A stretch of 64,000 bases of DNA from NCBI GenBank assembly GCA_023484515.1, contig JAMDAY010000010.1, forward strand, positions 5,131 to 69,130, in the 5' to 3' direction. Position 1 is the first letter of the stretch; every line of letters begins with the position of its first letter. The position numbers and the translations under genes are program-made. Of this stretch, positions 9,260 to 62,515 are shown piece after piece. The notes beneath the pieces were generated by a model, which saw nothing but the letters and a program-made list of their open reading frames with translations, made no database searches and was not told where the DNA came from. Origin of the DNA: Patescibacteria group bacterium. Lineage in GTDB: Bacteria > Patescibacteriota > Doudnabacteria > UBA920.

Positions 9260-9359
9260 AATGAGGGCCGTCCTCTGGGATTATTATTCTTAAGATCGTT
9301 TGGTAATAATCATAGTCTAATAATCTAAAATCTGTTTATCCCAGAGGACGGCTCTCATT
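9260..9359. repeat. MITE-like element copy 1 (diverged): 22-bp terminal inverted repeats AATGAGGGCCGTCCTCTGGGAT / ATCCCAGAGGACGGCTCTCATT around a roughly 56-bp AT-rich core
   Basis: The inverted repeat has one mismatch. The core (CTGGGA..TTCTTAAG..TTTGG..TAATCTAAA..TTATCCCAGAG) is related to the copies at 18086-18179 and 62422-62515. Confidence 0.5.
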
Positions 9360-9404
9360 ACCTTTGAAATTGTTTCCTTCTAATTTTACCATTAAATTTC
9401 CTTT

Positions 9405-9433
9405 TTGACAAAAAACAGCAATTATACTATAAT
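9405..9433 (+). promoter_or_regulatory. consensus sigma70-type promoter: TTGACA, 17-nt spacer, TATAAT
   Basis: The -35 is at 9405-9410 and the -10 at 9428-9433, with a spacer of exactly 17 nt. The next ORF on this strand starts at 10081. Confidence 0.6.
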
Positions 9434-10080
9434 GCTGTTAATATGAAAACTTTTATTTGGGATATTCCCAATAAGGGTATTAAAACAAACCATAACAAAG
9501 AAAGTCAGGAAATGCCCGTAAATTGCTAAAACAGGCTTCAGTAAGCACGAAATTTCGGGAATTTCCTGGCTTTTTGCGTATCTTTTCGCTTAAAAGCCGG
9601 TAAAAGCAGGGAAGGTTGTAACAAGTTTTATAACCTTTCGTCTGCTTTGCACACAACTCTAGAAGCTTGAAACTAAACTGTAGAAATTATAATTCAGCAT
9701 TGGGGATAACCTGATTAATGGATTTAATCTTTAGCAGAAGGTTTTAGGCCTGTGTTGTGTTTTGGCTCTTTTATTGAACTTAATGCTTAGGCCAGCCAAC
9801 TGGGTACAAGCAGCGCTTCGTTTGTGTATTTTAACCTTGTTGGGGAATTTACATAACAGGAAGCAAATTCTTAGTACTGCCCGGTCGATCTTTTGGCGTA
9901 ATAGTCTGGCGTTAAGGTTTCAATAATCATTTCCGCTCCTTGGATGTTTCGGCGATCTCTAGAGCGCCGGAAAGGAAAACTTGGGGAAATGTCCCAGCCT
10001 TGAGTTGGGAAAACTTTAATTAACATTTTCCAAATTGATTGTCTCAATTGAATAATCAATTTTTGGAAAAGGAGTAAAAA

Positions 10081-13000
10081 ATGCAAAATTCTGTAGCAAA
10101 GAAACTCTTTGCTGTAGGTGTTGCGGCTTCCACCGTCCTTTTGGGCTTGGCTCCTTTCGCTGCCAGCGCTGCTGCGCACGCCGAAGGCACCAACGTCAAA
10201 AAGTCTGACGGTACCGTCGGTATGATCATCGGCGGACAGTTCCGCCCCTACACTTCTGCGGGCGCTTTCCTCTCCTACGGCTTCAATTCTTGGGCCGGCG
10301 TAGTGGACGCCAATGCAGACGACTTGGCTTTGCCGACCGGAGCGTTCATTCCTCCGCAAGACGGCAAAATCATCTGCTCTGACCGGGGAACTGACAAAGG
10401 CACCTGCTATTTAATTTCAGGCGCCCAAAAAGCCGGCTTTACCTCTGCGGCCGTTTTCACCGGCCTCGGCTTTAGCTTCTCCAGAGCGCAATATGGCGAT
10501 GTTTCCTGGATGCCCAGCACCAGCAACATTGACAACACCACCGCCTCCCACTTGCCCGGCGTGTTGGTAAACAACAGCGGCACCGTCCAATTGGTCGGTT
10601 CCAACGGATTGCTCGGCATTCCGGACATAGCCACCTTTAACGGTTGGGGCTATTCCTTTGCCGACGTTGTCCCGGCTAATTCCGCTGACAAGGCTATGAC
10701 CCAGACCGGCGTTATGGCTTCTCGCGTAGCCGGCCAACTCTCTCCGACCGCTTTGGCCAATGTGCCCAGCGTAGTTTCCGGTTCCGTCAGCGCCTCCCTG
10801 GCTTCTGACACCCCGGCTGCGGGTTCGTTAGCCGTAAGCTCTACCGCCAGCGTCAACACCGTGGCTACGCTTGCCAAATTCAACTTTTCCGGCAGCGGCA
10901 CCGTTACCCAGTTGCAGGTAAAGAGGATCGGCATTTCTGCCGATACCGATTTGTCAAACGTTTATCTGTTTGACGGTAGTACCCGCTTGACTGACGCGGC
11001 TTCCGTAGGTGCTAACAGCCTGGTAACCTTCAGCAACCCGAACGGCTTGTTTACGGTTTCCGGCAACAAGACCATCTCCGTGGTTGCTGAACTTAAAAAT
11101 AACGCTTCCGCAGGCATTACTGTAGGCGTTCAGTTGACTTCTTTCACTGTGGCCAATGGCACTCCGGCGACAGTTGCCGTTTCCGGCAATTTATTTAGCG
11201 TCACTAACGTCGGCACGGACCTGGCTTATGGCGACTTCGGTTCGGTTACTCCAACCGGCGGCAGCTATGACCCGGCCAAAGATGTGGAAGTGTTCCGCAG
11301 CAACCTGACCGTAAATACGCGCAATATGACTCTTTCCGGTCTTATTTTGCGCCAGATCGGTTCCGCCAACAACTCGGATATTAACAATTTCCGCTTGCGC
11401 ATTGACGGCACCCAGGTTGCCCAGGTCCAAAGCGTGGACAGCAATGGTTATGTTAATTTTTCCTTCGCTCCGGTGACGCTGCAAAGTGGCACCCGCGTAG
11501 TCAGCGTATTGGCTGACGTGGTTGGCGGTTCTTCCAGAACTTTCCAGTTCCAGATCCGCAACAAGGCTGATGTGGTCTTAACCGATTCCAACTATGGTAC
11601 CCAGGTGTCCACCAATGATACCTACCCTGTAGGATCGGCCGCTGCTAATGACATTAATGCCGGCAGCTTGACTATCCAAAAGGCCACCGATTCTCCTTCG
11701 GCTGATGTTACTGCCAATAGCAACGACGTAACTTTGGCCAAATACACCCTGACCGCTTATGGCGAACCCATGAAGGTTGAAACCTTGACTGTTGCCGCTA
11801 CTTCCAGCGACGTGTCCGTTACCTCTTTGCGCAACGGCCGCGTATTGGTTAACGGCGCGCAATACGGTTCCACCGCCACTTTGGCCAGGTGTACCACTTG
11901 TGCAGACAACGATGCCGGCGGTACTGCTTATACTTTGAACTATACGGTCAACCCGGGTACCCCCGTAATCGTGGAAGTTCATGCCGACTTGTATGACAAC
12001 GACGGCGCGAACAACCTGGGCAACGGCGACACAGTGACTGCCTACATTTTGGAAGGCTCTTCCAACGTGCAAAAGACCGTATCTTTGGGCTATGGCAGTT
12101 ACCCGACCAACACTGTAGTGGCCGGTAATTCGCTATCTGTTGTAACTGGCAGCATGACGCTATCTTCCAATAGCAACTATGCCAACCAGAAAATCTCTCT
12201 GCCGCAGACCAGCTATAAGTTAGGTTCTTTTAACTTGGTTGGCAGCAGTTCCGAAGATATCAACATCAGCAGTATTGGTTTGGCCATGGTTGCCTCTACT
12301 ACTTTGACGAGCTTAAATGATGTTCAGATAAAAGTTAATGGCAACATGTTTGGCACCATTAAATCTACAGTCGCTGCGGGAACCGGGCCTAATGAAACCA
12401 TTGGCGCCACTTCCACCTTCTCCGGCAACTACACTTTGCCGAAATTGACGACTGTTCCGGTAGAAGTTTACGGTACAATAAACACCCCGACCTCGGGTTA
12501 TACCAACGACCACTTCCAGGTTCGTTTGTCTGTTGACGGTACCACGGCCAGTTCCGCCACCACGGCCGAGAGCAGTAATAATGGGCAGACCATTAGCATA
12601 GGCTCGGCTTCCATTGTGGCGGCTAAAGACGCGTCTTCTCCGGTTGCTTCGTTAGTAGCAGGCAACCAGACCAAGACCGCCGCAGCCTTTAAGTTTACCA
12701 CCACTGATGATGCGTATACCGTCAAGGAAATTACGTTTACTCCGACCAACGTGACCACTATTACCAGCGTAATCTTAAAGGACGGCAACACTGTTCTTGG
12801 CACCCAGCCGGGCGGCACCGCTACCGTGACTTTCAGCGGCTTGAACATTTCCATTCCGGCCAACTCCTCCAAGGTTTTGACCGTGGACTTGCAGCTTGGC
12901 GCCGTAGGCTATGGCCAAGGCACATCTGGCGACAACGTCCAAATCCAGCTGACCTCCTACAAGAACGTCCCGTCTTCCACGGGTGTGCAGGCCACCAACA

Positions 13001-14953: not shown

Positions 14954-15238
14954 ATGGAATTAGAAGAAGTAAAAAGAAGAATTACCCCTATTTTAAACCG
15001 TTATGGCGTCAAGCGGGCGGCTGTTTTTGGCAGTGTCGCCAGGGGAGAGGCGGGCAGGGATAGCGATGTGGATTTGCTTATTGAACTTGACGAGCCGCTC
15101 GGTTTGTTCAAACTGGCCCAGCTAAACTATGTGCTGGAGGACGTTTTGCAGAAAAAAGTTGATTTAGTGAAAACCGAAAATATTAAACCATCTTTTAAGG
15201 ATAATATTTTAAAGGATGCGGTTTACATTTATGGCTAA
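14954..15238 (+). CDS. mntA: nucleotidyltransferase-domain antitoxin (MNT, type VII TA)
   Basis: GSVARGEAGRDSDVDLLIE is the Pol-beta-superfamily NTase motif (GS...D.D). Confidence 0.85.
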   Translation: MELEEVKRRITPILNRYGVKRAAVFGSVARGEAGRDSDVDLLIELDEPLGLFKLAQLNYVLEDVLQKKVDLVKTENIKPSFKDNILKDAVYIYG

Positions 15239-15572
15239 CGCAGAAACCGCCTACTTGCAGGACATTTTAGACAATATTGGAATTTTGGAGAAATTTTTAA
15301 GCGGCGTTGGGAAAGACGCGTTTTTTTCCGATTTGGAAAAACAGTTTGCGGCGGCCCGCGCTTTGGAGATTATCGGGGAAGCTTCCGCAAAACTTTCGGA
15401 AGATTTTCGGACAAAGCATCCGGAAATAGATTGGCGCGGATTAAAGTCTATGAGGAACTTGCTGATTCATGAATATGCATACGTTGATGCGGGAGAAGTC
15501 TGGAAAGCGGGCCAAAATGATGTCCCGGATTTAAAAGCGAAAATAAAAACCATCCTCGCACAAGCATTGTAG
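15231..15572 (+). CDS. hepT: HepT-like (DUF86/HEPN) toxin
   Basis: RNLLIHEYAYVD matches the R-X4-HXY HEPN motif. There is an 8-nt ATGGCTAA overlap with the MNT stop. Confidence 0.85.
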   Translation: MANAETAYLQDILDNIGILEKFLSGVGKDAFFSDLEKQFAAARALEIIGEASAKLSEDFRTKHPEIDWRGLKSMRNLLIHEYAYVDAGEVWKAGQNDVPDLKAKIKTILAQAL

Positions 15573-15578
15573 CATATT

Positions 15579-15637
15579 AAAATTCCGCCGAAATTTTACT
15601 TTTAATCTATCCATGGTAAAATTTCGGCGGAATTTTA
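15579..15637. terminator. strong hairpin: 21-bp perfect inverted repeat AAAATTCCGCCGAAATTTTAC / GTAAAATTTCGGCGGAATTTT with an 17-nt loop
   Basis: Read directly, immediately 3' of hepT. Confidence 0.65.
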
Positions 15638-15676
15638 AATGTTTGCTATAATATATAAAACCATTAACTTTTTACC

Positions 15677-17902
15677 ATGAAAACCAAGCCAGTTCTTTAT
15701 ATTTTCTTTATTTTAATCTGCTTTAGTTTGCTCACTCCGTTTGTCGTGGACAAAAATTACCTTTTTCCCTTTATTTTGCCCCGCGCCCTGTTTTTGCGCA
15801 TAGTCCTGGACATTGCCCTGCCCTTTTATTTATACCTCATATTAGCCAAAAAGGAATACCGCCCAAATTTAAAAAATCCGTTAAACCTTTCAGTTCTGGT
15901 TTTTTTGGGAGTTTACTTTATTACTTCCTTTACCGGCGTAGACGCGTTGCGCAGCGTGTGGGGCAACATTGAACGCATGGGCGGGGCGTGGTATATGATG
16001 CATCTGGTAATGCTGTATTTTTACGTGCTGCTTTTAGCCCAGGCCAGCGGCAGGCTGCTGCTGCGGTTTTTAAAAATTTTCCTGTGGGTGGCCAATGTTA
16101 CCGTATTTTACGGGTTGTGGGTATACTTGGGCCTGCCGGGTTTTTACGCGGACCCTTCGCTGCCTTCCCGCGTGTCTTCCAGTTTCGGCAATCCCATCTT
16201 TTTTGCCAGTTTCCTGGTGCTGCCGCTGTTTCTGTCCGTGTTTTTCGCCATCCAGGAAGAATCCAGGGCCTGGAAGGCAATATACGGGGTAATGGCGTTA
16301 TTGCAACTGTTCGGCATTTACCAGAGCGCCACGCGCGGCGCGTTTGTGGGCCTGGCGGCCGGCATATTTTTGGCGGCCGTGATGTTTTTGTTCAAGGCGG
16401 AATCGCGGCGCCTGCGCAATTGGGGAGTTGCCGCGGTCGGAGGCATAGTCCTGGTAGCCGGCGCGCTGTTCCTGTTCGGCGGCAAGCTGCCGTCCGGTTC
16501 GTTTTTATACCGCATTACCCATTTAAAGGACAGCAATTCCGAAGCCCGCCTGATCCAGTGGAAGACCGCCCTTCAAGGATACAAAGACAAGCCTGTTTTG
16601 GGCGTGGGCCCGGAAAATTACTATATCATCGCCAACAAATATTACAATCCCGAACTGAACAAGTACGATCCTTCCTGGTTTGACAAGCCGCATAACTATC
16701 TTTTGGAAATTTTAGTGACCACCGGCGCGGTAGGATTTGCCGCCTATCTGGCCATGCTGGCGTTTTTTGCCTGGAGCCTGTATAAGGCCTTTAAGGCCGG
16801 GTTGCTTTCGTGGCTGGAAACCTGCGTGCTTTTAGCCGGCATGCTGGCTTACCAGATCCAGAACTTGTTCGTGTTTGATACCATTTCCGCTTCCGTGGCC
16901 TTTTTCATTTATATGGGTTTTGGCGCGTATTTGTGGCATGAGTCGGAATTGGAAAAAAAACCGGCCCACAAAAAAATTATGTCCGGCCTTAGCCCCGCTT
17001 TCGTGAACGCGGCCGCAGGCGTGTCTGCGGTTGCCGTAATTTATGCCATTTACTTGACAAGTATTGTGCCGGGCCGGGTGGCAAAGAACATTAATTACGG
17101 CTACGCTTATTCCGGCATAGACCCGGTAAAGGCGGAACAATATTTTGAAGCCGCGCGCAACCAGCCGTTCGTGTTTGATCCGGGAGAATTGGGAGTGCGC
17201 TATGCGGACTTTGCCGCTAACGTGGCCCAAAACCCGCCGCAGGGGTTGTCCAAGGAAGAGATTGGCAAGATTACCGACCATGCCATAGCTTCTTTGGAGG
17301 ACGCAAATGCGCGCGTGCCCAATTATCCCATCTTTTGGTATAAATTGGCCCAGGCTTACAATACCAAAAGCCTGCTGGACAACGGGCCCGTGGACCCAAG
17401 GGCCGACCAGGCCGCGGCCAGGGCCGTGGAACTGGCACCCAAGCGGCCGGAAACCATAAGCTACCTTATCCAGGTAAAGGCCGCAGAGGGACAGACGGAT
17501 AAAGCAGTGTCATTGTCGGAGCAGTTGGCCCAATTGTACCCGTGGAATTCCGATTACGCCTGGCGCCTGGCAGTGGTGTACGATTTTGCCAAGCAGGACG
17601 AAAAAGCGGTTGCAACTGCGCAACAGGCGCTGGCCGCAGGCTACCAAATAAAGCAAACCAGTGACATCCAGTGGCTGGTAAAATATTATTCCGATAATAA
17701 AAATTATGCCGCTGCAATCGCATTATACCAGGCAGGGTTAAAAAATGACCCGACCAATGTCCAGCTTTTGAGCGGTTTGGCCCTGGCTTATGCCGACTCG
17801 GGCGACAAACAAAAGGCCATAGAGACCGCCAGGCAAATTGTTGTAATCCAGCCGGCGGCCAAGGACGACGTGGACAAATTCATCCAGGGCTTAAGCCAGT
17901 AA
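15677..17902 (+). CDS. Wzy_C (O-antigen ligase / PglL-WsaB-like oligosaccharyltransferase family) polytopic membrane protein with a C-terminal TPR domain
   Basis: Multiple TM helices. IYQSATRGAFVGLAAG and ARLIQWKTALQGYKDKPVLGVGPENY match Wzy_C signatures. The C-terminal roughly 250 aa carry TPR-like repeats. Confidence 0.8.
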   Translation: MKTKPVLYIFFILICFSLLTPFVVDKNYLFPFILPRALFLRIVLDIALPFYLYLILAKKEYRPNLKNPLNLSVLVFLGVYFITSFTGVDALRSVWGNIERMGGAWYMMHLVMLYFYVLLLAQASGRLLLRFLKIFLWVANVTVFYGLWVYLGLPGFYADPSLPSRVSSSFGNPIFFASFLVLPLFLSVFFAIQEESRAWKAIYGVMALLQLFGIYQSATRGAFVGLAAGIFLAAVMFLFKAESRRLRNWGVAAVGGIVLVAGALFLFGGKLPSGSFLYRITHLKDSNSEARLIQWKTALQGYKDKPVLGVGPENYYIIANKYYNPELNKYDPSWFDKPHNYLLEILVTTGAVGFAAYLAMLAFFAWSLYKAFKAGLLSWLETCVLLAGMLAYQIQNLFVFDTISASVAFFIYMGFGAYLWHESELEKKPAHKKIMSGLSPAFVNAAAGVSAVAVIYAIYLTSIVPGRVAKNINYGYAYSGIDPVKAEQYFEAARNQPFVFDPGELGVRYADFAANVAQNPPQGLSKEEIGKITDHAIASLEDANARVPNYPIFWYKLAQAYNTKSLLDNGPVDPRADQAAARAVELAPKRPETISYLIQVKAAEGQTDKAVSLSEQLAQLYPWNSDYAWRLAVVYDFAKQDEKAVATAQQALAAGYQIKQTSDIQWLVKYYSDNKNYAAAIALYQAGLKNDPTNVQLLSGLALAYADSGDKQKAIETARQIVVIQPAAKDDVDKFIQGLSQ

Positions 17903-18085
17903 AGGCGCTTTTTGCGGAATTTGGCAGATTGAGTTGAATAATTTTTCTCACCAGCCAGACGTAATCCGTTTAACTTATGCCGCAAAATCAGTAGCGTAGG
18001 GGAATTGTATCGGACGCCTGTCCAGGAATTGCAGGCTCTGGCAGCGAAGACGGCCTTTAGGGGACAAACAGGCTTTAGAGGCAGT

Positions 18086-18179
18086 GATGACGCACATCTG
18101 GGACAATCTTCCTTAAGTTTGGCTGATGATGATTATTATCCGGTAATCTAAAGACCGCTTATCCCAGATGTGCGTCATC
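18086..18179. repeat. MITE-like element copy 2: 18-bp terminal inverted repeats GATGACGCACATCTGGGA / TCCCAGATGTGCGTCATC flanking a 58-bp core
   Basis: Read directly. It is about 90% identical, in reverse complement, to 62422-62515. It lies between convergent gene ends. Confidence 0.7.
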
Positions 18180-18225
18180 TCCCAAAAAATAGAAAGATTG
18201 GGAATTTGCTAATTTTTTTATTTTT

Positions 18226-19347
18226 CTATTTTTGAATCTTTAAATTGTATTTTAAGGCCGCGCAATAAACGTTTTCCGTTTCCTTAAGCATTTGCTCTTC
18301 CGTAAACAGCCTGCTCTGCTGCGACGATTTTTGCGACAAAGTTTCCGCTGCATTACGGTCCCGTATTACAGTAACCATGGCCCGGGCCAGAGCCCGGGGG
18401 TCTTGGGGCGGCACTAATATTGCGGCGCTGCCCAGGGCTTCCCGGTTGCCGCCGACATTTGCCGCAATTATTGGCAGGCCGGCCTGCATGGCTTCCAGCA
18501 GGGCATAGGGAAAGCCTTCCTTGCGCGAGGGAAGCACAAAAATATCCAGTGCCTTTAAATAGAGCCGCGCGTCCGGCACTTGCCCCAGCAGCCGGAAAGA
18601 GCTTTCCAATTTTAAATTTAAGATTTTAGATTTAAGATTTTGATATTCCGGGCCGCTGCCGAAAATTACGAATACCACTTTGTCCAAAATTTCCCGCGGC
18701 AAAGTTGCCGCGGCTTCCACCAAAATGTCCTGCCCTTTGGTTTTGTAAAAGTTGGAAGTGTTGCCCAATGTTATCACGTGCTGCGGCAGCCCCAGCCGGC
18801 TGCGGGCTTCGTCCCTGGTTAAAAACGGCAGGGGAGGGATGCCGTTATGGACCGTGCGAATTTTTTCTGGAGCAATCAGTCTTTTTTGCAGCGCGGAATT
18901 TTTATCGGAGTCGGAAACCGCAATAATATAGCTGCGGAACAAAGAGGCGAATTTTTCTAGCCAAAGGTAGAAAAACTTGGAAACAGGGGAGAGCGGCTCG
19001 CTGTAGCGGAAGCCGTGGGCGGTAAAAATAATTTTGGCTTTAACGAACGGCTTAACCAGGCTGCCCAAAAACCCCGCTTTGGTGGAATTTAAATGCACTA
19101 TGTCGGGTTTTAGGGAATTGGCCAGCCTGGCAATTTCCAAAATTGCCAGCAAGTCATGCCAGGGGCTAATGTTGCGCTTTAAGTGCCTAAGCCCGTAAGC
19201 CGGAATGCCAGCCTGCCTGGCTTTAACAAACAGCCCTTGTTCTTCCGTTCCGGCGGCAATGGCGCCTTTAAAATGCCTGGCCAAAGCCAGCACGTAATTC
19301 TGCGCGCCGCCCCCGTCGGCTTGGGTGATAATATACAGTATCTTCAT
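18226..19347 (-). CDS. glycosyltransferase family 4 (GT1-fold)
   Basis: EGFPYALLEAMQAGLPIIAANVGG is the GT4 C-terminal motif. The ORF is 373 aa. Confidence 0.85.
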   Translation of the reverse strand: MKILYIITQADGGGAQNYVLALARHFKGAIAAGTEEQGLFVKARQAGIPAYGLRHLKRNISPWHDLLAILEIARLANSLKPDIVHLNSTKAGFLGSLVKPFVKAKIIFTAHGFRYSEPLSPVSKFFYLWLEKFASLFRSYIIAVSDSDKNSALQKRLIAPEKIRTVHNGIPPLPFLTRDEARSRLGLPQHVITLGNTSNFYKTKGQDILVEAAATLPREILDKVVFVIFGSGPEYQNLKSKILNLKLESSFRLLGQVPDARLYLKALDIFVLPSRKEGFPYALLEAMQAGLPIIAANVGGNREALGSAAILVPPQDPRALARAMVTVIRDRNAAETLSQKSSQQSRLFTEEQMLKETENVYCAALKYNLKIQK

Positions 19348-19565: not shown

Positions 19566-19670
19566 AAGTGGATTTTAATTTTTCAATTTTTAATCTTTCA
19601 ATCTTTCAATAATATCATTGTATATTAAAACCAATTGCTTTGAAAGTGAAACTATGGTAAAGTTGAATAT

Positions 19671-20693
19671 ATGAAAAACACGCCCAAAGTCGCGCTAATC
19701 ACCGGCATTACCGGGCAGGACGGGTCATACTTGGCGGAATTGCTGCTGTCCAAGGGATACGAAGTCCACGGGATAATGCGGCGCGCCAGCACTTTTAATA
19801 CCGAGAGGATAGAGCAAATTTACCAGGATCCGCACGAGTCGCATAAGAGGCTGTTTTTGCACTACGGGGATTTGGCGGACGCCTCCAATTTAAACCATCT
19901 GCTTAAAAAAGTTAAGCCTGACGAAATTTACAATTTGGGCGCGCAGAGCCACGTGCGCGTCAGCTTTGACATTCCCGAATACACGGCCAATGTGACGGCT
20001 TTGGGCACGCTGCGCCTGCTGGACGCCATCCGCGAAAACGAAATTCAAACCAGGTTTTACCAGGCCGGGTCTTCGGAAATGTTCGGCGACGTTTTGGAAA
20101 CGCCGCAAAGCGAAAGCACGCCGTTTAACCCGGCTTCGCCCTATGGCGCGGCCAAGGTATTTGCCCACCACATTTGCAAGAATTACCGCGCTGCCTACAA
20201 TATGTTTATTTGCAACGGCATATTGTTCAATCACGAATCGGAGAGGCGCGGCAAGACTTTTGTGACGCGGAAAATTACCACCGGCATTGCCGAAATTTTA
20301 GCCGGCCGGCAGGACAAAATCTATTTGGGAAATTTGGACGCCAAGCGCGACTGGGGCTATGCGCCGGAATACGTGCAGGCTATGTGGCTGATGCTGCAGC
20401 AGGACAAGCCGGACGACTACGTGATTGCCACGGGCGAAACCCACAGCATTAGGGAATTTTTGGAAGAGGCTTTCGGCTTGCTGGGCATTAAGGATTGGGA
20501 AAAATACATTGGCATAGACCCCAAATACTACCGGCCGCAGGAAGTTAATTTGCTTTTGGGCAATGCCGGCAAAGCCAAAAAAATCTTGGGCTGGGAGCCG
20601 AAAGTGAAGTTTAAGGACCTGGTGCGCATAATGCTGGAAGCGGATGTTAAGGAAGCAGGGATGCAGTTGAAAGATTTAAAGATTGAAAATTAA
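19671..20693 (+). CDS. gmd: GDP-mannose 4,6-dehydratase
   Basis: [19 protein letters not shown]...GDLAD...[14 protein letters not shown]...[13 protein letters not shown] matches GMD throughout. Confidence 0.95.
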
Positions 20694-21692
<999 letters not shown>

Positions 21693-22504: not shown

Positions 22505-23587
22505 ATGCTTCGTATTTTATTCTGTGGTTTTAAATACGAATACGGCCGGCCGGAGCTGGGCTTGTCCGCTATTGAATACCGGGCTTTTTACAAGACGTTG
22601 GAAGCCATGGAAGGGGTGGAGGCGGAGTTTTTTGCAATTGACGAGCTTATGCGCCAGGCGGGGCGGGACGAAATGAACCGGCAATTAATCCGGAAGGTTC
22701 AAGAGGAAAAACCGGACCTGCTGTTTTGTTTCTTGTTTACCGAGGAGCTGAAAAAGGAAACCATAGCTTACATTACGCGCAAGACTGGGACTAAAACTTT
22801 TAACTGGTTTGCGGACGACCACTGGCGCCTGCCGGTCTTTTCCCGCTTTTGGGCGCCGCTGTTTACCATGGCCGGGACAACGGATTCGCAAGCTTTGGCT
22901 AAATATGAATCTTACGGCATCACTAACGTCATAAAGACCCAGTGGGCGGCGAATACGGCGTTATGCAAGCCGGTAGATGATTTAAAGATTGAAAGATTGA
23001 AAGATTCAAAGATTGAGGATTGCGAAATTGCCTTTGTGGGAAAAAAATACGGGAACAGGGGAAGTTATATCGCGTATCTTAAAAGCCATAACCTTCCGGC
23101 AGAGGGGTATGGCAAAGGTTGGGAAACGGGCGTGGTAAGTTTCCGGGAGATGCTGGAAATATTTTCCCAAAGTAAGATAAATTTGAATTTTACGGAAAGC
23201 TACTTAAGTTGGCCAAAAGAGATTGTAAAATTGTTTATAAAGGAAGAACTGGGCAAATACAGTCTTAATTTCCAATTTCCAATTTCCAATCTCCAATCCT
23301 TGGCTGGGAAAAGACGCAGGCAAATTAAGGCGCGGATTTTTGAAGTGCCGGCTTGCGGCGGGTTCCTGCTGACCGGTGATGCGGACAATTTGCGCGACTA
23401 CTATGAAGACGGCAAGGAAATTGTCCTTTTTAAGGACAAAAATGATTTAGTGGAAAAATGCCGTTATTATCTTGAGCACGAAGGCGAGCGCCAAGCCATT
23501 GCCCTTGCGGGTTATCAGCGGACTATAAAGGACCACACTTACGAGCAGAGGTTTAGAGAAATATTTAAGGTAATGGAACTAGTGTAA
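22505..23587 (+). CDS. CgeB-family glycosyltransferase (DUF3880 plus GT1-like C-terminal domain)
   Basis: The C-terminal block IFEVPACGGFLLTGD...YYLEHEGERQAIALAGYQRTIKDHTYEQR is typical of CgeB-like proteins. A paralog lies at 43181-44338. Confidence 0.65.
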   Translation: MLRILFCGFKYEYGRPELGLSAIEYRAFYKTLEAMEGVEAEFFAIDELMRQAGRDEMNRQLIRKVQEEKPDLLFCFLFTEELKKETIAYITRKTGTKTFNWFADDHWRLPVFSRFWAPLFTMAGTTDSQALAKYESYGITNVIKTQWAANTALCKPVDDLKIERLKDSKIEDCEIAFVGKKYGNRGSYIAYLKSHNLPAEGYGKGWETGVVSFREMLEIFSQSKINLNFTESYLSWPKEIVKLFIKEELGKYSLNFQFPISNLQSLAGKRRRQIKARIFEVPACGGFLLTGDADNLRDYYEDGKEIVLFKDKNDLVEKCRYYLEHEGERQAIALAGYQRTIKDHTYEQRFREIFKVMELV

Positions 23588-23767: not shown

Positions 23768-24013
23768 ATGGCAGAAATCAAGCCAAATGAAGTATATACT
23801 ACCGAAGAAACGCAGGAGTTGCTGAAAGTCAGCAATAGCACTATTAAACGCATGTTGAAAAACGGTTTGCTCCGGGCCAACAAAGTCGGCAAGCAGTATC
23901 GCATAATGGGGCATGAAATTTTAAGGCTGGTCAGCCCGGAAGTGGAGCAAAAAGCCGTGGAAAAGTACCAGCAAATTAAAACCAAAGTCAGGGAAGGGAC
24001 AAAAAACTGGTAA
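23768..24013 (+). CDS. excisionase-family helix-turn-helix DNA-binding protein
   Basis: YTTEETQELLKVSNSTIKRMLKNGLLRANKVGKQYRI matches the excisionase/MerR-type HTH (TIGR01764-like). The ORF track starts earlier, at 23720. Confidence 0.55.
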   Translation: MAEIKPNEVYTTEETQELLKVSNSTIKRMLKNGLLRANKVGKQYRIMGHEILRLVSPEVEQKAVEKYQQIKTKVREGTKNW

Positions 24014-24107
24014 CCCTACTAAAGTACCAAAATGTACCAAAATACGAAATCTGCTACAAATTTGGGTTAATTTAGTACTTTAGTATTATTTAGTATTTTA
24101 GTAGGGG
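24014..24107. repeat. solo inverted-repeat pair of the TACTAAAG motif family (termini CCCTACTAAA ... TTTAGTAGGGG), with about 26 nt between the arms
   Basis: Read directly. It has the same termini as the repeats flanking the GxxExxY gene at 24929-25390. Confidence 0.55.
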
Positions 24108-24108
24108 T

Positions 24109-24927
24109 ATGGAAATTATAATTCGACCAAAAAGCAAATGGTGGCATTTGGACCTGGGAGAGCTTTGGACTTTCCGCGATTTATTTTATTTTTTAACCTG
24201 GCGGGACGTTAAGGTCAAATACAAGCAGACCATTGTGGGGGTGCTGTGGGCCGTGTTCCAGCCGTTTGTGACCATGGTGGTGTTTTCGGTTTTTTTCGGC
24301 AGGCTGGCTAAAATGCCTTCGGAGGGGGTGCCTTACCCGATTTTTGTTTACACCGGCCTTATTTTTTGGACTTTGTTTTCCGCGGGACTGACCGACACCA
24401 GCGGCTCATTCGTTTCTAATTCCCAGATTGTGACCAAAGTATACTTTCCCCGCGTTATTTTGCCCACGGCCACGGTGCTGACAAACATGGTGGACTTTGC
24501 CATTGCGGCAATCATTCTGGTGGGGTTGATGTTTTATTACCACTACACCCCCACGCTTTTGGGGATTGTGCTAATTCCGGTCCTAATTTTAATGACCATT
24601 TTAAGCACGCTGGGCGTGGGTTTGCTGTTCGGGTCTTTGAACGTAAAATACCGCGACGTCAGGTTTATTTTGCCGTTTTTTATCCAGTTGCTGATTTTCA
24701 TCACGCCGGTCATTTACCCCGTTACCATTGTTTCGGAAAAATACCGCTGGATTTTGGGCCTTAACCCCATGTCCGGGGTAATAGACGTTGCGCGGGCAGG
24801 GCTTTTGGGAATTAAGTCCATAGACTGGGGGCTGCTGCTTGTTTCCATAATAAGCATGACAGTGTATTGCGTTGTCGGATACCTTTACTTCAAGGTGGTG
24901 GAGCGGTATTTCGCAGACGTTATTTAA
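24109..24927 (+). CDS. wzm: ABC-2 type polysaccharide exporter permease (Wzm/TagG-like)
   Basis: WRDVKVKYKQTIVGVLWAVFQPF and six predicted TM segments, the ABC-2 permease signature. Confidence 0.85.
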   Translation: MEIIIRPKSKWWHLDLGELWTFRDLFYFLTWRDVKVKYKQTIVGVLWAVFQPFVTMVVFSVFFGRLAKMPSEGVPYPIFVYTGLIFWTLFSAGLTDTSGSFVSNSQIVTKVYFPRVILPTATVLTNMVDFAIAAIILVGLMFYYHYTPTLLGIVLIPVLILMTILSTLGVGLLFGSLNVKYRDVRFILPFFIQLLIFITPVIYPVTIVSEKYRWILGLNPMSGVIDVARAGLLGIKSIDWGLLLVSIISMTVYCVVGYLYFKVVERYFADVI

Positions 24928-24928: not shown

Positions 24929-25390
24929 CCCTACTAAATTACTAAAGTGTACCAAAATACTAAAACTAAAAACATTCGGGAAGATTTGGTTGAAAAGGAC
25001 CTTTGTTATAAAATAGTTGGCGTATTAATGGAAGTATATAAACAACTTGGAAGCGGCCATCGCGAACAATATTACCAGCGAGCAATTGCAGCAGAACTTA
25101 CGCGTCAAAAGTACTCATTTAAACAGTTTGTTAGAACAACCTTAAATTATAAAGATGCCCCAATAGGCGTTTATATCTTAGATTTCCTAATAGAAGGCCG
25201 TGTGGTTCTGGAGATAAAGAAGGATAACTATTTTTCCAGACAACACATTGACCAAGTTAATGGATATTTAAAGACTTTAGATCTTCGGCTGGGTATTTTA
25301 GCAAATTTCACCAAAGAAGGGGTAAAATTTAAAAGAATCGTCAATCTGTATTAATTTAGTACTTTAGTATTTTTTAGTAATTTAGTAAGG
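24929..25390. mobile_element. putative inverted-repeat-flanked cassette carrying a GxxExxY gene
   Basis: Left repeat CCCTACTAAATTACTAAAGTGTACCAAAATACTAAAA (24929-), right repeat ...TTAGTACTTTAGTATTTTTTAGTAATTTAGTAAGG (-25390). Termini are CCCTACTAAA / TTTAGTAAGG. The cassette splits the wzm-wzt pair. Confidence 0.4.
24947..25354 (+). CDS. GxxExxY protein (PD-(D/E)XK-superfamily, TIGR04256-like)
   Basis: KIVGVLMEVYKQLGSGHREQYYQRAIAAEL...DFLIEGRVVLEIK matches the family. The start is uncertain; the first annotated codon lies inside the flanking repeat. Confidence 0.8.
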   Translation: MYQNTKTKNIREDLVEKDLCYKIVGVLMEVYKQLGSGHREQYYQRAIAAELTRQKYSFKQFVRTTLNYKDAPIGVYILDFLIEGRVVLEIKKDNYFSRQHIDQVNGYLKTLDLRLGILANFTKEGVKFKRIVNLY

Positions 25391-52175: not shown

Positions 52176-52338
52176 GAGGTGGTCTAAAAACTCCATTTGG
52201 GCTGCAATTGCAAAATTTCGGCCATTTGGGCCAAAAAATTTCTCCGCTTAGCCTACGGCTAAACATCAAAATTTATTTGCCCCAACTGCCTCGAAATTTT
52301 GCAATTTCGCCTACAAAGCGAGTTTTTAGACCACCTCC
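52176..52338. repeat. 163-nt imperfect palindrome with perfect 18-bp outer arms GAGGTGGTCTAAAAACTC / GAGTTTTTAGACCACCTC and nested inner inverted repeats (GCAATTGCAAAATTTCG...)
   Basis: Read directly; it occupies the whole rfbC-GT2 intergenic space. Confidence 0.65.
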
Positions 52339-53172: not shown

Positions 53173-54477
53173 ATGCTTAACAACAAATTAGTAAATTTTT
53201 GGCTGCTTACGGTCCCGGACCTGGCATTGTTTTATGCGGGGTTATGGATGGCCATTCTGCTGCGCTACGGCGGGGGGTTAAAAGGCGTGGACGCGACCGC
53301 GCATTTTAAGGCCTTTACCGTGCTGTTCGCTTTTTGGCTGGTGGTATTCTTTATCCACGGGCTTTTGGACATCCGTTCCCTAAAGCGCTATACCGGCATA
53401 GTCTTCGGCTTGCTTTCCGCAACCGTAACCAACCTGGTCATTGCCATTGTTTATTTTTATTTCCAGCCGGACCTGATTTTAACGCCCAGGCGCTTTTTAC
53501 TTTTGGATTTAACCATAACTTTCGTCTTAATCCTGGCCTGGCATCTGCTGTTAAAATTCAACCTGAAGCGCCTGGCCACGGAAGACGTATATTTGTTTTC
53601 CTTTAACAACGAATTGGCAGAATTGGAACGGGAAATTAAAAAGCATGGCTACCTGGGTTTTAAGGTGCTGGGGCATTTATGCGAACAGGATTTAAGGCAG
53701 CCGGCGCTGGCAATAAACAGCGCCATTATATTGCCGGACAATTTGCAGGCCAAGCCGGAAGTGCTTGCCAAATTTTACGAATGGCGGAAGTCCGGGGTGG
53801 ATTTTTTTAACCATCGCGAATTTTACGAAAACCTGCTGCGGCGCGTGTATATTTCCGACTTAAGCGAGCTGTGGTTCTTGGAAAACATCAGTTATAAGGA
53901 AAAGCGCTTTTACAACCTGCTCAAGCGGGCCATAGATTTAATTTTCGGCGTTTTAGGGCTGGCTGCGTTTTTGTTAAGCTGGCCGTTTTGCTCCCTGCTG
54001 ATTAAGCTGACTTCCCCGGGCCCGGTTTTGTTCATCCAGGAGCGGGTAGGCAGGGGGGGTAAAATTTTCAAGGTTTACAAATACCGCACCATGAGCGGCG
54101 GCCCGACCAATACCTGGACTTCGGTCAACGACCCGCGCATCACCAAAGTGGGCAAATTTTTGCGCAAGAGCCGCATAGACGAATGGCCGCAGTTCTTAAA
54201 CCTGCTGGCCGGCAACTTAAGCCTGGTCGGCCCGCGGCCGGAACAACCGCACATTGTGGAAGAATTAAAAAGGCAAATCCCGTTTTACGACGAGCGGCAT
54301 TTGGTCAAACCCGGCCTGACCGGCTGGGCGCAGCTAAACGTTTATGCCGGTTCCCTGGAAGAGACCAAAGCCAAACTGCAATACGACCTGTATTACATTA
54401 AGCACCGCAGCCTGGCTTTTGACCTGGAGATTATTTTGAAGACTTTGTATTACATCTTTACCTGGCAGGGGAGGTAA
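53173..54477 (+). CDS. undecaprenyl-phosphate sugar phosphotransferase (WbaP/WsaP-like initiating enzyme)
   Basis: N-terminal TM region. C-terminal KRAIDLIFG...SPGPVLFIQERVGRGGKIFKVYKYRTM...PQFLNLLAGNLSLVGPRP is the bacterial sugar-transferase domain. Confidence 0.9.
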   Translation: MLNNKLVNFWLLTVPDLALFYAGLWMAILLRYGGGLKGVDATAHFKAFTVLFAFWLVVFFIHGLLDIRSLKRYTGIVFGLLSATVTNLVIAIVYFYFQPDLILTPRRFLLLDLTITFVLILAWHLLLKFNLKRLATEDVYLFSFNNELAELEREIKKHGYLGFKVLGHLCEQDLRQPALAINSAIILPDNLQAKPEVLAKFYEWRKSGVDFFNHREFYENLLRRVYISDLSELWFLENISYKEKRFYNLLKRAIDLIFGVLGLAAFLLSWPFCSLLIKLTSPGPVLFIQERVGRGGKIFKVYKYRTMSGGPTNTWTSVNDPRITKVGKFLRKSRIDEWPQFLNLLAGNLSLVGPRPEQPHIVEELKRQIPFYDERHLVKPGLTGWAQLNVYAGSLEETKAKLQYDLYYIKHRSLAFDLEIILKTLYYIFTWQGR

Positions 54478-54596
54478 AATTTAAAGATTTAAAAATAGAA
54501 AAATAGAAAGATTGAAAGATTAAACGGCTCAAATAATTTTGCCAGTTGGCGGATGGCGGGTTGGGCTGTTTTTTATTTTACTCAATAAAAATTTTA

Positions 54597-60384: not shown

Positions 60385-60570
60385 CTCCCATTGGGGTCTG
60401 CTCGGAATTCTTAAATTTCGCCTTAAAAGCGCATTCGGCAACAGACCCATTGGAAAAATTCAGGCCGGTTGGATATAATATAGGTAGTTTTACATCCAGC
60501 TTAATCGGATATAGCCCTGCCGCCGGCCCCGGACCGCAGGGCTGCGGGGATTCTTCCCGCCACATTTTTT

Positions 60571-60647
60571 GACCTCGTAGCTCATTTGGATAGAGCGCTT
60601 GGCTTCGAACCAAGAGGCAGCAGGTTCAAATCCTGCCGAGGTCACCA
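60571..60647 (+). tRNA. tRNA-Arg (anticodon TCG), CCA encoded
   Basis: Manual cloverleaf: acceptor GACCTCG/CGAGGTC, D-arm GCTC-ATTTGGATA-GAGC, anticodon stem CTTGG/CCAAG with loop CTTCGAA, T-arm GCAGG-TTCAAAT-CCTGC. 77 nt. Confidence 0.9.
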
Positions 60648-60739
60648 AATGCGGCGGGGTGAAGCCTTGCCGGGCGCACTGCGAATCGCTTCCCGTCTTC
60701 ATCGGGCCGGATATGTGCCGCGGCAATAATTTCTAAAAT

Positions 60740-61186: not shown

Positions 61187-61257
61187 TTCAACAGGAAATT
61201 TAGTTGTAAATACACAAAAGAGAAAAAGGCACCAGACAAGCTGATACCTTTTTCCCT

Positions 61258-61333
61258 TGGTGGGTCGGGTGGGGATCGAACCCACGACCGTTTGCTTAAG
61301 AGGCAACTGCTCTACCAACTGAGCTACCGACCC
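61258..61333 (-). tRNA. tRNA-Lys (anticodon CTT), CCA encoded
   Basis: The reverse complement GGGTCGGTAGCTCAGTTGGTAGAGCAGTTGCCTCTTAAGCAAACGGTCGTGGGTTCGATCCCCACCCGACCCACCA gives a clean cloverleaf. The anticodon loop is CTCTTAA. Confidence 0.9.
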
Positions 61334-61396
61334 GTTTATTCAAATTTTTTCATTACATCTGATATTTTACAATAAATTGAAAATTTTATCAAGCGC

Positions 61397-62374
61397 ATGA
61401 TTTCAATTTTTCTCGGGCCTGACGATTTTACCAAGAAGGAATATATAAAATCCCTGGCTGAAAAGCAGGGGGCGGTTTTGGAGGTTTTTAGGGACGCGGA
61501 AAACGCGCCCAGGGCGGACAAGCTGGCAGAGCGGGATTTGTTCGCCAAAAAAAAGATCCTGGTGCTGGAAAATTTGCTGTCCAAATACGCGGCGGACGAA
61601 AAAATGGCGGAAAAGCTGGCTGGCTGCCCGAATGACATTATTTTCTTGGAAGAAAAATTGGACAAGCGCAGCAGCGCCAACAAAAAAATTCTCGCAAATA
61701 AATTTGTCACAACTAAAGAATTTGCCTTGCCCCACGGCAAGAATCTGGACAAATGGATAATGGAAAAGGTTAAATTTTACCAAGGTAAAATTAATCCCAA
61801 GGCTGCGGACCTGCTGGCGCGAAAACTTGGCCGCGACGAGGCGCTGGAAACCAAATTTGGCGGCAAGGTGGCGGACGTTAAAGAAGTTTACAACCTCTGG
61901 CAGGCGGACAATGAGGTTAAAAAATTACTGGCTTTAAGCGGAGGTGGGGAAATTTTGGAAAATGATATAGAAGAATTGGTGGTGGAAAACGGGGAAGTGG
62001 ATGTATTTAAGATTATCAACGCCTTGGCTGACAACAAAAAAAACTTGGCTTTGGGCCTGGTGCAGGATTTTTTGGATTCGGGCAGCGGCGACGAAAAGGC
62101 CAAAATTATCCAGCTTAACGCCCTCATTTCCGAACAGTTCCGCAACATTTTGGCAGTGCAAGATTTATTGTCCAGGAAAGTCATGGACGAAGAGATTCTA
62201 AGCCGGACTTCCTGGAAAAGCGGCAGGCTTTATGTTATGAAAAAGAACGCGGTTAAGTTTAGCCAGGTTAAGGCAAAAGAGCTGCTTGCGAAATTGGAAC
62301 ATCTGGACGAAGAGTTAAAAACCTCGGCCACGCCGCCGCGGGTGCTGCTGGACCTGATACTGGCACAGATGTGA
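61397..62374 (+). CDS. holA: DNA polymerase III subunit delta
   Basis: N-terminal IFLGPDDFTKKEYIKSL. The C-terminal region LNALISEQFRNILAVQDL...VKFSQVKAKELLAKLEHLDEELKT parallels the Bacillus HolA C-terminal domain. Confidence 0.7.
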   Translation: MISIFLGPDDFTKKEYIKSLAEKQGAVLEVFRDAENAPRADKLAERDLFAKKKILVLENLLSKYAADEKMAEKLAGCPNDIIFLEEKLDKRSSANKKILANKFVTTKEFALPHGKNLDKWIMEKVKFYQGKINPKAADLLARKLGRDEALETKFGGKVADVKEVYNLWQADNEVKKLLALSGGGEILENDIEELVVENGEVDVFKIINALADNKKNLALGLVQDFLDSGSGDEKAKIIQLNALISEQFRNILAVQDLLSRKVMDEEILSRTSWKSGRLYVMKKNAVKFSQVKAKELLAKLEHLDEELKTSATPPRVLLDLILAQM

Positions 62375-62421
62375 TTGACGTTATAAAACATGAAGGGTGC
62401 TTTCCGGGAATATATGACAGT

Positions 62422-62515
62422 GATGACGCACATCTGGGATAAGCGGTCTTTAGATTGCCGGATAAGAATTATCATCAACCAAACTTAAGGAAAATTGTTC
62501 CAGATGTGCGTTATC
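62422..62515. repeat. MITE-like element copy 3 (inverted relative to copy 2)
   Basis: Terminal repeats GATGACGCACATCTGGGA / TTCCAGATGTGCGTTATC. The core is about 90% identical to the reverse complement of 18086-18179. It lies between the convergent holA and typA ends. Confidence 0.7.

What the first reader, a model, noticed from the sequence alone, without database searches (positions are those of the whole stretch)
9260..62515. Three-copy MITE-like repeat family (94-100 bp, 18-22 bp terminal inverted repeats)
Elements at 9260-9359, 18086-18179 and 62422-62515 share termini of the form (A/G)ATGA(C/G)GC..CTGGGA ... TCCCAG..GC(G/T)CAT(C/T) and a related AT-rich core (..TTCCTTAAGTTTGG..TAATCTAAAGACCGCTTATCCCAGA). 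Copies 2 and 3 are about 90% identical and in opposite orientation, and each sits exactly between convergent gene ends. Copy 1 is more diverged and sits next to tRNA-Pro. Each copy can fold into a roughly 45-bp hairpin. This looks like a miniature inverted-repeat transposable element, or a family of long bidirectional terminator hairpins spreading by recombination. It is not a CRISPR repeat, since there are no regular spacers.
Basis: seen in the sequence. Interest (0 to 1): 0.65.

Follow-up and report, generated by a model that had tools for sequence, protein, structure and literature searches.

The report
Palindromic repeat family in CPR bacterium
Three copies of a roughly 100-base non-coding DNA palindrome lie between genes of an uncultured Patescibacteria (CPR) genome; they look like a small selfish repeat family (MITE/REPIN-like) that varies between otherwise identical strains, not a new RNA gene or a terminator.

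Summary
Three related 94-102 nt palindromic elements lie at 9259-9360, 18086-18179 and 62422-62515. Each has an 18-23 bp outer stem and a 72-nt core of identical length (TCTGGGA...TCCCAGA).

Copies 2 and 3 are 92.6% identical with inverted interiors. Copy 1 is 64% identical, and its six stem differences are all compensated.

The host is a Doudnabacteria-like Patescibacteria MAG. Rfam, GTDB genomes, JGI metagenomes, IMG/VR and a six-frame peptide search found no other member.

Short-read contigs of the same organism from two other SRA runs end inside the elements. That implies more copies elsewhere in the genome. In one run, the left half of copy 2 is replaced by the other half-type, while 2,469 nt of flank are identical.

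There are no target-site duplications and no U-tract after the hairpin. No transposase, invertase or Nop-domain gene occurs in about 74 kb. Copy 3 sits beside a canonical terminator, and copy 1 lies upstream of tRNA-Pro, not at a convergent junction.

Best reading: a DNA-level, hairpin-dependent dispersed repeat closest in architecture to REPINs, and a recombination hot spot. It is a new member of a known kind, of modest interest.

The parts
9259..9360 (.). Copy 1 (diverged subfamily). Its 23-bp outer stem is TAATGAGGGCCGTCCTCTGGGAT / ATCCCAGAGGACGGCTCTCATTA, with one G.T.
   Evidence: (I3). Logan contig L023 starts at window 9331, so its first 31-mer ends at 9361. That is what is expected if another copy shares the sequence up to 9360, the outer end of the stem.
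9274..9345 (.). 72-nt conserved core of copy 1 (TCTGGGA...TCCCAGA)
   Evidence: It matches the copy 2 core at 50/72 positions without gaps.
18086..18179 (.). Copy 2. Perfect 18-bp outer stem GATGACGCACATCTGGGA / TCCCAGATGTGCGTCATC. It lies in the 323-nt spacer between convergent genes 15677-17902(+) and 18226-19347(-).
   Evidence: (I1).
18082..18185 (+). Copy 2 with the flanks it shares with copy 3 (CAGT on the left, TCCCAA on the right)
   Evidence: (D6). The 4 + 6 flanking bases match copy 3 only when both are read on the + strand, whereas the interiors match only in opposite orientation.
18097..18168 (.). 72-nt conserved core of copy 2
62422..62515 (.). Copy 3. Its interior is inverted relative to copy 2. 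The 18-bp stem carries two C>T changes in the right arm. It lies between the holA stop (62374) and a canonical terminator.
   Evidence: Logan contigs from two other runs carry the same orientation as far as they reach (element positions 1-80).
62418..62521 (+). Copy 3 with the shared flanks CAGT / TCCCAA
   Evidence: (D6).
62433..62504 (.). 72-nt core of copy 3 (one base changed in the TCTGGGA box)
   Evidence: 66/72 identical to the copy 2 core.
9170..9243 (-). tRNA-Pro(UGG). Its 5' end is 16 nt from copy 1.
9383..9411 (-). Promoter-like site (TTGTCA-17-TAAAAT with TG) just upstream of copy 1 on the tRNA strand. If used, copy 1 is transcribed in the pre-tRNA leader.
   Evidence: consensus match only; the transcription is inferred.
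62548..62573 (.). Canonical bidirectional intrinsic terminator AAAAAACCAGCCATTGGCTGGTTTTT between copy 3 and the end of typA
   Evidence: Read directly. It also appears as a hairpin hit. The pattern scan did not list it.

Best explanation
These are members of a small, genome-specific family of non-coding palindromic repeats. They are selfish or near-neutral DNA of the MITE/REPIN type, living in the intergenic spaces of a Patescibacteria genome.

**Anatomy.** Each unit is a quasi-palindrome with three parts:
- a perfect outer stem of 18-23 bp, whose tips (ATGA) and base (TCTGGGA/TCCCAGA) are conserved while the middle varies;
- a 72-nt core of fixed length;
- two related but distinguishable halves, here called A (..GGGACAATCTTCCTTAAG..) and B (..GGGATAAGCGGTCTTTAGATT..).

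**Shown:**
- the family recurs in the window;
- the stem is kept paired through sequence change;
- no family member was found in any public collection scanned;
- it is a hot spot of structural change between otherwise identical strains.

**Inferred:**
- Spread and maintenance act on DNA, through a hairpin or cruciform. Possible routes are an ssDNA hairpin recognised by an enzyme encoded elsewhere in the genome, and/or arm-to-arm and copy-to-copy templated repair and gene conversion.
- This would keep the stems perfect without any RNA function. It would also allow halves or whole interiors to be swapped or flipped, because the two arms are the same sequence.
- When transcribed, the element simply adds a very stable RNA hairpin. 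That would happen in the holA 3' UTR for copy 3, in one or both 3' UTRs for copy 2, and probably in the pre-tRNA-Pro leader for copy 1. The hairpin may incidentally slow 3' exonucleases or attract RNase III.
For: 1. **Recurrence and similarity:**
2. **Stem conservation:** 18-23 bp stems with six compensated pairs between subfamilies. Folding is equally strong as RNA on both strands and as DNA.
3. **No consistent RNA strand.** The single G.T in copy 1 favours one orientation and the two in copy 3 favour the other. This argues against selection on one transcript.
4. **Different transcriptional contexts.** Two copies lie in 3' regions and one lies upstream of a tRNA.
5. **Lineage restriction.** The core pattern gave only chance or coding matches in 185,579 species genomes, in JGI metagenomes and in IMG/VR. 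A six-frame peptide search gave nothing. Rfam gave nothing above threshold. Relatives with 56-58% HolA identity lack it.
6. **Contig ends fall inside the elements.** The Logan contigs checked base by base (L016, L027, L004) are 100% identical to the window. Four contig ends lie 28, 28, 30 and 37 nt inside an element, two lie at position 80, and one lies 6 nt in, just before a G/T difference. Several of these positions cannot be explained by the three known copies, so further copies are implied. Other contig ends fall in other repeats.
7. **Strain variation confined to the element.** At copy 2, sample SRR10267473 has the B-type half joined to the left flank where the window has the A-type half. 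12 of 31 positions differ, after 2,469 identical flank bases.
8. **Shared flanks with inverted interiors** in copies 2 and 3.
9. **Match to REPINs.** REPINs are described as inverted conserved ends, a spacer of conserved length, a hairpin, frequent compensatory changes, an asymmetric excised intermediate, and no coding capacity (PMC3116915).
Against: - Only three copies are directly observed. The extra copies are inferred from where de Bruijn-graph contigs stop. That inference assumes k about 31 for Logan, which is my recollection and was not verified (one search failed).
- No target-site duplication, no empty site and no cognate enzyme were seen in about 74 kb.
- The pattern 'variable stem, conserved loop blocks, fixed core length' is also what a functional structured RNA would show.
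- The mini-palindrome inside each arm that would make the arms REP-like has only a 4-bp stem (GATGacgcaCATC; GAGGgccgtCCTC).
- The variant allele carries three bases (T7, A32, G36) that differ from the window's right half. For T7, the same sample's own right arm reads G at position 7. So simple arm-to-arm copying does not fully explain it.
Confidence: 0.6

Rival explanations
1. The hairpin is primarily a functional RNA element. It would be a cis-acting structure in transcripts, such as a 3'-end stabiliser, an RNase III processing site or a U-tract-independent terminator. It would have been copied to several places because it is useful there.
For: Stems covary while loop blocks (CTTAAG, AATCTAAA, TTATCCCAGA) and the 72-nt core length are conserved. 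All three copies probably lie inside transcribed regions. At the copy 2 junction no other terminator-like site was found. Enterobacterial ERIC and neisserial Correia repeats are known to act on mRNA stability when transcribed (my own knowledge).
Against: - No U-run follows any copy.
- Copy 3 is followed by a canonical terminator, so it is not needed there.
- Copy 1 is upstream of a tRNA, not at a 3' end.
- The wobble pairs favour opposite strands in copies 1 and 3.
- Half-type and orientation vary between loci and between strains.
- The core pattern was not found outside this lineage.
Confidence: 0.2
2. The elements are sites of a programmed DNA rearrangement. They would be targets of a site-specific recombinase or invertase that flips or exchanges the interior between the two identical arms, acting as a small switch.
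For: Copies 2 and 3 have the same flanks and arms but inverted interiors. At copy 2, strains differ in which half-type adjoins the left flank while 2.47 kb of flank is identical. Both alleles appear to coexist in SRR10252151, because the contig stops just before the first differing base.
Against: - No recombinase gene lies in about 74 kb.
- A 58-bp segment is very short for invertase synapsis (my own knowledge).
- The variant allele looks symmetrised (B on both sides), not flipped. The right-flank contigs run through position 19 as B-type in both samples.
- The variant carries extra substitutions.
- No convincing promoter or ORF lies inside to be switched.
Confidence: 0.07
3. The elements encode guide-type RNAs, such as TIGR stem-loop units or bridge-RNA-like molecules. 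In those, a variable palindromic stem holds loops that carry recognition sequences.
For: TIGR-Tas systems occur in CPR bacteria. Their stem-loop arrays have variable but always palindromic stems around loops with short conserved motifs (PMC12045711). The elements here have a variable stem and a pseudo-symmetric loop.
Against: The elements are solitary and dispersed, not in tandem arrays. No Nop-domain (Tas) or IS110-type gene is in the window. The loops are largely conserved between copies and do not carry 8-12 nt variable spacers between fixed motifs. The GUGAUGA at the left edge of copies 2 and 3 is fully Watson-Crick paired, so it cannot form a K-turn.
Confidence: 0.03

Closest known systems
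REPINs (REP doublets forming hairpins) mobilised by RAYT transposases, described in Pseudomonas, E. coli and Nostoc (PMC3116915)
   Same: About 100 nt, non-coding and extragenic. Two conserved ends in inverted orientation surround a spacer of conserved length. The whole unit folds into a long hairpin, compensatory changes keep the hairpin, there is no target-site duplication, and the true ends are asymmetric. Here the core span is 72 nt; the GI REPIN span is 71 bp (probably coincidence).
   Different: The arms carry only a 4-bp mini-palindrome, not a REP-sized one. No GTAG-type conserved tetranucleotide was recognised. No RAYT was found in the sequence available. The directly seen copy number is three, not tens to hundreds. 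The host phylum is Patescibacteria; my literature searches turned up no REPIN or RAYT report for this phylum.
Bacterial MITEs such as Correia/NEMIS (Neisseria), ERIC/IRU (Enterobacteria), RUP (Streptococcus) and Nezha (cyanobacteria); comparison from my own knowledge
   Same: Size, terminal inverted repeats, intergenic location in either orientation, co-transcription with neighbouring genes, and folding into RNA hairpins. Correia elements also come as mosaics of two end types (alpha/beta), which recalls the A and B halves here.
   Different: No TA or other target-site duplication. The tips and base of the inverted repeat are conserved but its middle is not. No related full-length IS was seen.
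Small inversions of hairpin loops, and quasi-palindrome template-switch mutation (chloroplast spacers, E. coli quasi-palindromes); from my own knowledge
   Same: A segment held between perfect inverted repeats is found flipped, or one arm is rewritten to match the other. No dedicated enzyme is needed.
   Different: These are mutational processes, not a family. They would explain the variation seen here, not the origin or spread of the element. The variant allele is not an exact copy of the other arm.

Membership tests
Classical MITE | Terminal inverted repeats | tested here: met
   18-23 bp arms.
Classical MITE | Direct target-site duplication flanking each copy | tested here: not met
   The flanks are tattt|..|ccttt for copy 1 and gcagt|..|tccca for copies 2 and 3. 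There is no direct repeat.
Classical MITE | Small, non-coding, multi-copy | tested here: met
   The elements are 94-102 nt. The longest internal ORF is 21 codons, has no plausible ribosome-binding site, and shows 3 non-synonymous vs 1 synonymous difference between copies 2 and 3 (read by eye). There are three copies in 64 kb, and more are implied by contig ends.
Classical MITE | A parent insertion sequence with the same ends, or a transposase, in the genome | not testable with these tools
   None was found in the window or in about 10 kb beyond it. The rest of the MAG could not be reached.
REPIN / REP | Two conserved ends in inverted orientation, a spacer of conserved length, and a hairpin fold with compensatory changes | tested here: met
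   Criteria are from PMC3116915.
REPIN / REP | Each end contains a REP palindrome able to fold on its own ('clover' form) | tested here: inconclusive
   The arms read GA(T/G)G-N5-C(A/C)TC with the variable pair compensated, but the stem is only 4 bp (read).
REPIN / REP | A single-copy RAYT (Y1 HUH transposase, PF01797) flanked by the repeats | not testable with these tools
   Absent from the window and from L025. The whole genome was not available.
REPIN / REP | Strong over-representation (tens to hundreds of copies) | tested here: inconclusive
   3 copies per 74 kb were seen directly. At least 3-4 more are inferred from contig ends.
Intrinsic (rho-independent) terminator | G+C-rich stem-loop followed directly by a U-run | tested here: not met
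   No T-run follows any copy on either strand. A true terminator lies 33 nt beyond copy 3.
TIGR stem-loop array (Tas-associated) | Tandem units next to a Nop-domain Tas gene, with variable 8-12 nt spacers between box motifs | tested here: not met
   The units are solitary, no Nop-domain gene is present, and the loops are conserved. Criteria are from PMC12045711.
Any Rfam family | Score at or above the family's gathering threshold | tested here: not met
   Only three tRNAs pass. Sub-threshold hits are generic long hairpins, for example MIR774 at 34 bits vs 80 and WsnRNA46 at 34 vs 65.
Inverton (invertase-driven switch) | Inverted repeats around a promoter-bearing segment, with both orientations in one population and an invertase gene | tested here: not met
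   No invertase in the sequence available. No convincing internal promoter. The variant allele looks symmetrised, not flipped.

The most novel reading that the evidence does not exclude
The 72-nt core held by a variable clamp stem could be a functional module, acting as RNA or as hairpin DNA, whose two halves are actively exchanged or flipped. That would make it a previously undescribed small switch or recognition element of CPR bacteria, serviced by an enzyme encoded elsewhere in the genome. It would then not be passive selfish DNA.
Probability: 0.07. Interest if true: 0.7.

Novelty: new member of a known kind. Interest (0 to 1): 0.35.

Why it matters
CPR/Patescibacteria genomes are small and generally thought to be poor in mobile DNA. 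A multi-copy palindromic repeat family there would be a useful marker of strain dynamics and of recombination in organisms that cannot be cultured, especially since it differs between strains with otherwise identical flanks. Such repeats also fragment short-read assemblies at predictable places, as seen here. If a cognate enzyme such as a RAYT-like HUH transposase were found, REPIN-type systems would extend to a new phylum. None of this changes a major picture, so the finding is of local interest.

Tried and rejected
- **Known RNA family.** Rfam at gathering thresholds over the whole window found only tRNAs. Permissive thresholds around copy 1 gave only generic hairpin matches below threshold.
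- **More copies in public data.**
  - The conserved 19-base pattern in GTDB species genomes gave 3 hits. One was read (Nostoc low-complexity DNA) and none matches model R1.
  - The same pattern in JGI metagenomes gave 4 hits, all without a hairpin and apparently coding.
  - A looser pattern and the 18-nt arm in IMG/VR gave chance hits that do not match model R1.
- **Six-frame peptide trick.** I searched for spurious ORFs called over other copies in 5.8 billion proteins and found nothing.
- **Covariance model R1.** Searched over the window with filters off, it found no diverged copy.
- **Orthologous empty sites.** The nearest HolA homologues are only 56-60% identical and not syntenic, and they carry no element. 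One strong model hit in L020 is an assembly artefact: an inverted duplication around a run of N.
- **Empty target CAGTTCCCAA in the window.** Not enriched.
- **Small ORF inside the element** (MTHIWDKRSLDY...). Rejected: no ribosome-binding site at a workable distance, and mostly non-synonymous differences.
- **Box C/D or K-turn reading of GUGAUGA.** Rejected: the motif is fully paired and no CUGA partner exists.
- **attC site.** Rejected by eye: no GTTRRRY / RYYYAAC boxes.
- **Retron msr/msd.** Rejected: no reverse transcriptase nearby.
- **Extending the window.** Protein look-ups yielded only about 10 kb beyond typA, with no further copy. One look-up failed because the start codon was wrong.

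Full report
**What is there.** The three elements are at the stated coordinates.
- Copy 1 is best bounded at 9259-9360, with a 23-bp stem TAATGAGGGCCGTCCTCTGGGAT / ATCCCAGAGGACGGCTCTCATTA that contains one G.T.
- Copy 2 is at 18086-18179, with a perfect 18-bp stem GATGACGCACATCTGGGA / TCCCAGATGTGCGTCATC.
- Copy 3 is at 62422-62515. It has the same stem with two C>T changes in one arm.

The shared block AATCTAAANNCNGNTTATCCCAGA occurs three times, even allowing three mismatches, against zero expected. Copy 2(+) and copy 3(-) are 87/94 identical, but only 67/94 when both are read on the + strand. Copy 1 is 64% identical to copy 2.

The stretch from TCTGGGA to TCCCAGA is exactly 72 nt in copies 1 and 2. 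These cores match at 50/72 positions without gaps. The outer parts of the stems differ in length (15 vs 11 bp) and sequence. All six differing pairs remain complementary.

Every copy folds far better than shuffled controls, as RNA on either strand and as single-stranded DNA. A covariance model of the three copies finds nothing else in the window.

**Host and surroundings.** HolA and TypA of the window are identical to proteins of an NCBI MAG labelled 'Patescibacteria group bacterium' (locus tags M1383_, contig of 79,258 bp). The next-best HolA hits are only 60% identical or less, and several of the named hits are labelled Candidatus Doudnabacteria. The window carries:
- pentose-phosphate and glycolytic genes;
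- a large cell-surface protein;
- a long polysaccharide-synthesis cluster;
- type IV pilus genes;
- an MNT/HepT pair;
- holA and typA (and the precomputed Pfam hits).

It has no transposase, integrase, invertase, HUH enzyme or Nop-domain protein.

**Position of each copy.**
- Copy 2 lies in a 323-nt spacer between convergent genes, with no other terminator-like site.
- Copy 3 lies 47 nt after the holA stop. It is followed by a textbook bidirectional terminator, AAAAAACCAGCCATTGGCTGGTTTTT at 62548-62573, which also serves typA.
- Copy 1 is not at a convergent junction. It lies 16 nt upstream of the 5' end of tRNA-Pro on the minus strand. It sits between that gene and promoter-like sites, including a 12/12 consensus promoter at 9405-9433 that faces the other way.
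- No copy is followed by a U-run on either strand.

**Is it a known RNA, or found elsewhere?** Rfam gives only the three tRNAs at curated thresholds. Around copy 1 it gives only sub-threshold matches to generic long hairpins. The conserved core pattern found nothing real in any of these:
- one genome of each of 185,579 species;
- JGI metagenomes, where all four hits lack a hairpin and read as coding sequence;
- IMG/VR.

A search of 5.8 billion predicted proteins with the six-frame translation of the element found nothing. Two relatives with 56-58% HolA identity carry no such element and are not syntenic. One apparent hit is an assembly artefact around a run of N. So the family is confined, as far as public data show, to this organism or its close kin.

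**Evidence from other samples.** Protein look-ups recovered Logan contigs of the same organism from SRA runs SRR10252151, SRR10267473 and SRR10278331. Three of these contigs (L016, L027, L004) were compared with the window base by base and are identical. The 2,469 nt of flank in L023 and L024 are also identical. The contig ends are informative:

| Contig (run) | Where it starts or ends |
|---|---|
| L016 (SRR10252151), L017 (SRR10267473) | both enter copy 2 from the right and stop 28 nt inside it |
| L023 (SRR10252151) | starts 30 nt inside the right end of copy 1, so its first 31-mer ends one base past the stem; ends 6 nt into copy 2 |
| L025 (SRR10267473), L026 (SRR10252151) | both enter copy 3 from the typA side and stop at element position 80 |
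| L018, L027, and the far end of the L016 contig (SRR10252151) | ends fall in other repeats: the 36-bp palindrome at 1604-1639, a 162-nt palindrome at 52176-52337, and an 8-bp tandem motif near 54500 |

For a de Bruijn-graph assembly with k about 31, such ends mark places where a k-mer is shared with another locus. The k value is my recollection of Logan and was not verified. Positions 28 (copy 2), 80 (copy 3) and the copy 1 end cannot be produced by the three known copies alone. So additional copies are implied: at least one of the copy 1 type and two of the copy 2/3 type. This is inference, not observation.

**Strain-level change.** Contig L024 (SRR10267473) runs from the left flank of copy 2 into the element and reads GATGACTCACATCTGGGATAAGCGGTCTTTAAATTGC. 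This is the half-type that the window has on the other side of the element (B). The window's left half reads GATGACGCACATCTGGGACAATCTTCCTTAAGTTTGG (A).
- The 2,469 bases to the left are identical in the window, L024 and L023. Divergence starts exactly at element position 7, and 12 of the next 31 positions differ.
- L023 stops just before that first differing base, which suggests that both alleles coexist in SRR10252151.
- In both samples the right-flank contigs run through position 19 as B-type without a branch.
- The simplest reading is therefore a variant allele with B on both sides (a more perfect palindrome) and not a clean flip. A perfect B/B palindrome would be very stable as a hairpin.
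- The variant carries three bases that differ from the window's right half. So ectopic conversion from another copy, or replacement by another family member, is as likely as arm-to-arm copying.

Copies 2 and 3 share four bases of left flank (CAGT) and six of right flank (TCCCAA) on the + strand, yet their interiors are inverted. This fits three possibilities: a 104-nt unit whose interior can be turned or rewritten, orientation-blind insertion into a preferred site, or a core nested in a host palindrome. Three copies cannot separate these.

**Interpretation.** The features point to a DNA-level palindromic repeat family and not to an RNA gene:
- The wobble pairs favour opposite strands in copies 1 and 3.
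- The contexts differ (two 3' regions, one tRNA leader).
- Orientation and half-type vary between loci and strains.
- The core pattern was not found outside the lineage.

The architecture is what was described for REPINs (PMC3116915): conserved inverted ends, a spacer of fixed length, a long hairpin, compensated changes, no target duplication, and asymmetric true ends. Each arm even contains a small compensated palindrome (GATGacgcaCATC / GAGGgccgtCCTC) that recalls the REPIN 'clover' form, although four base pairs is weak evidence. What is missing is the enzyme: no RAYT or any other candidate lies in the 74 kb I could read. Membership in the REPIN class therefore cannot be claimed, only close resemblance.

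The strict MITE definition fails on target-site duplication. The terminator idea fails on the U-tract, on the neighbouring true terminator, and on copy 1. TIGR-type stem-loop units, which do occur in CPR bacteria (PMC12045711), were considered. They were rejected because these units are solitary, have conserved loops, and lack a Tas gene.

**Verdict.** This is a real, lineage-specific family of about 100-nt palindromic repeats. It most likely consists of selfish or neutral hairpin DNA that recombines readily, with incidental effects on the transcripts that contain it. It is a new member of a known kind. I found no published description of such repeats in CPR bacteria in the literature searches run here. 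The strain-level half replacement is a neat observation. The finding does not open a major question. Interest is 0.35.

Noticed in passing
window 52176-52337: A second, unrelated long palindromic element of 162 nt lies between two same-strand genes. It has 24-nt outer arms (92% complementary) and further inner complementarity. Logan contigs of the same organism stop about 30-36 nt inside each of its ends, so it is probably another multi-copy repeat family in this genome.
   Followed up: partly
window 832-867 and 1604-1639: Two copies of a perfect 36-bp palindrome, AGTGAAAAA(T/A)TTGTACAATTGTACAA(A/T)TTTTTCACT. One lies upstream of a PaaX-like regulator gene (923-1597) and the other upstream of the next ORF. 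It looks like an operator for a dimeric regulator. A Logan contig starts inside the second copy.
   Followed up: no
window 9405-9433 and 9440-10080: A 12/12 consensus sigma-70 promoter (TTGACA-17-TATAAT) is followed by about 640 nt without a convincing ORF, before the gene of a 1168-aa surface-type protein with no Pfam match. This is either a long leader or an unannotated RNA. Rfam found nothing.
   Followed up: partly
window 18204-18245, 19569-19618, 20662-20753, 22976-23026, 54475-54533: Short tandem runs of an 8-bp motif (AAAGATTG / CAATCTTT and variants) recur in intergenic spacers of the polysaccharide cluster. One Logan contig ends inside such a run. The function is unknown; they may be regulator binding arrays.
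   Followed up: no
window 24011-24109, 24929-24967, 25343-25390: Parts of one intergenic spacer (CCCTACTAAAGTACCAAAATGTACC... and ...TTAGTACTTTAGTAT...) are duplicated on either side of a small PDDEXK_3 gene (24947-25354) inside an ABC-transporter operon. The small gene looks as if it was inserted with duplication of the spacer. Another PDDEXK_3 gene lies beyond the window (L025), and a 23S_rRNA_IVP-type gene sits upstream of the GT4 gene.
   Followed up: no
window 60548-60577 and 60637-60666: tRNA-Arg (60571-60647) is bracketed by 30-nt inverted repeats (80% complementary) that overlap its ends. This may be a processing stem.
   Followed up: no
window 14954-15572 and 15577-15638: An MNT/HepT (nucleotidyltransferase / HEPN RNase) toxin-antitoxin pair is followed directly by a perfect 23-bp-stem hairpin, TTAAAATTCCGCCGAAATTTTAC...GTAAAATTTCGGCGGAATTTTAA.
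   Followed up: no
L020 1340-1537: A JGI contig of a relative carries a perfect 84-nt inverted duplication around a run of N. It is an assembly or scaffolding artefact that scores well with any hairpin model.
   Followed up: yes
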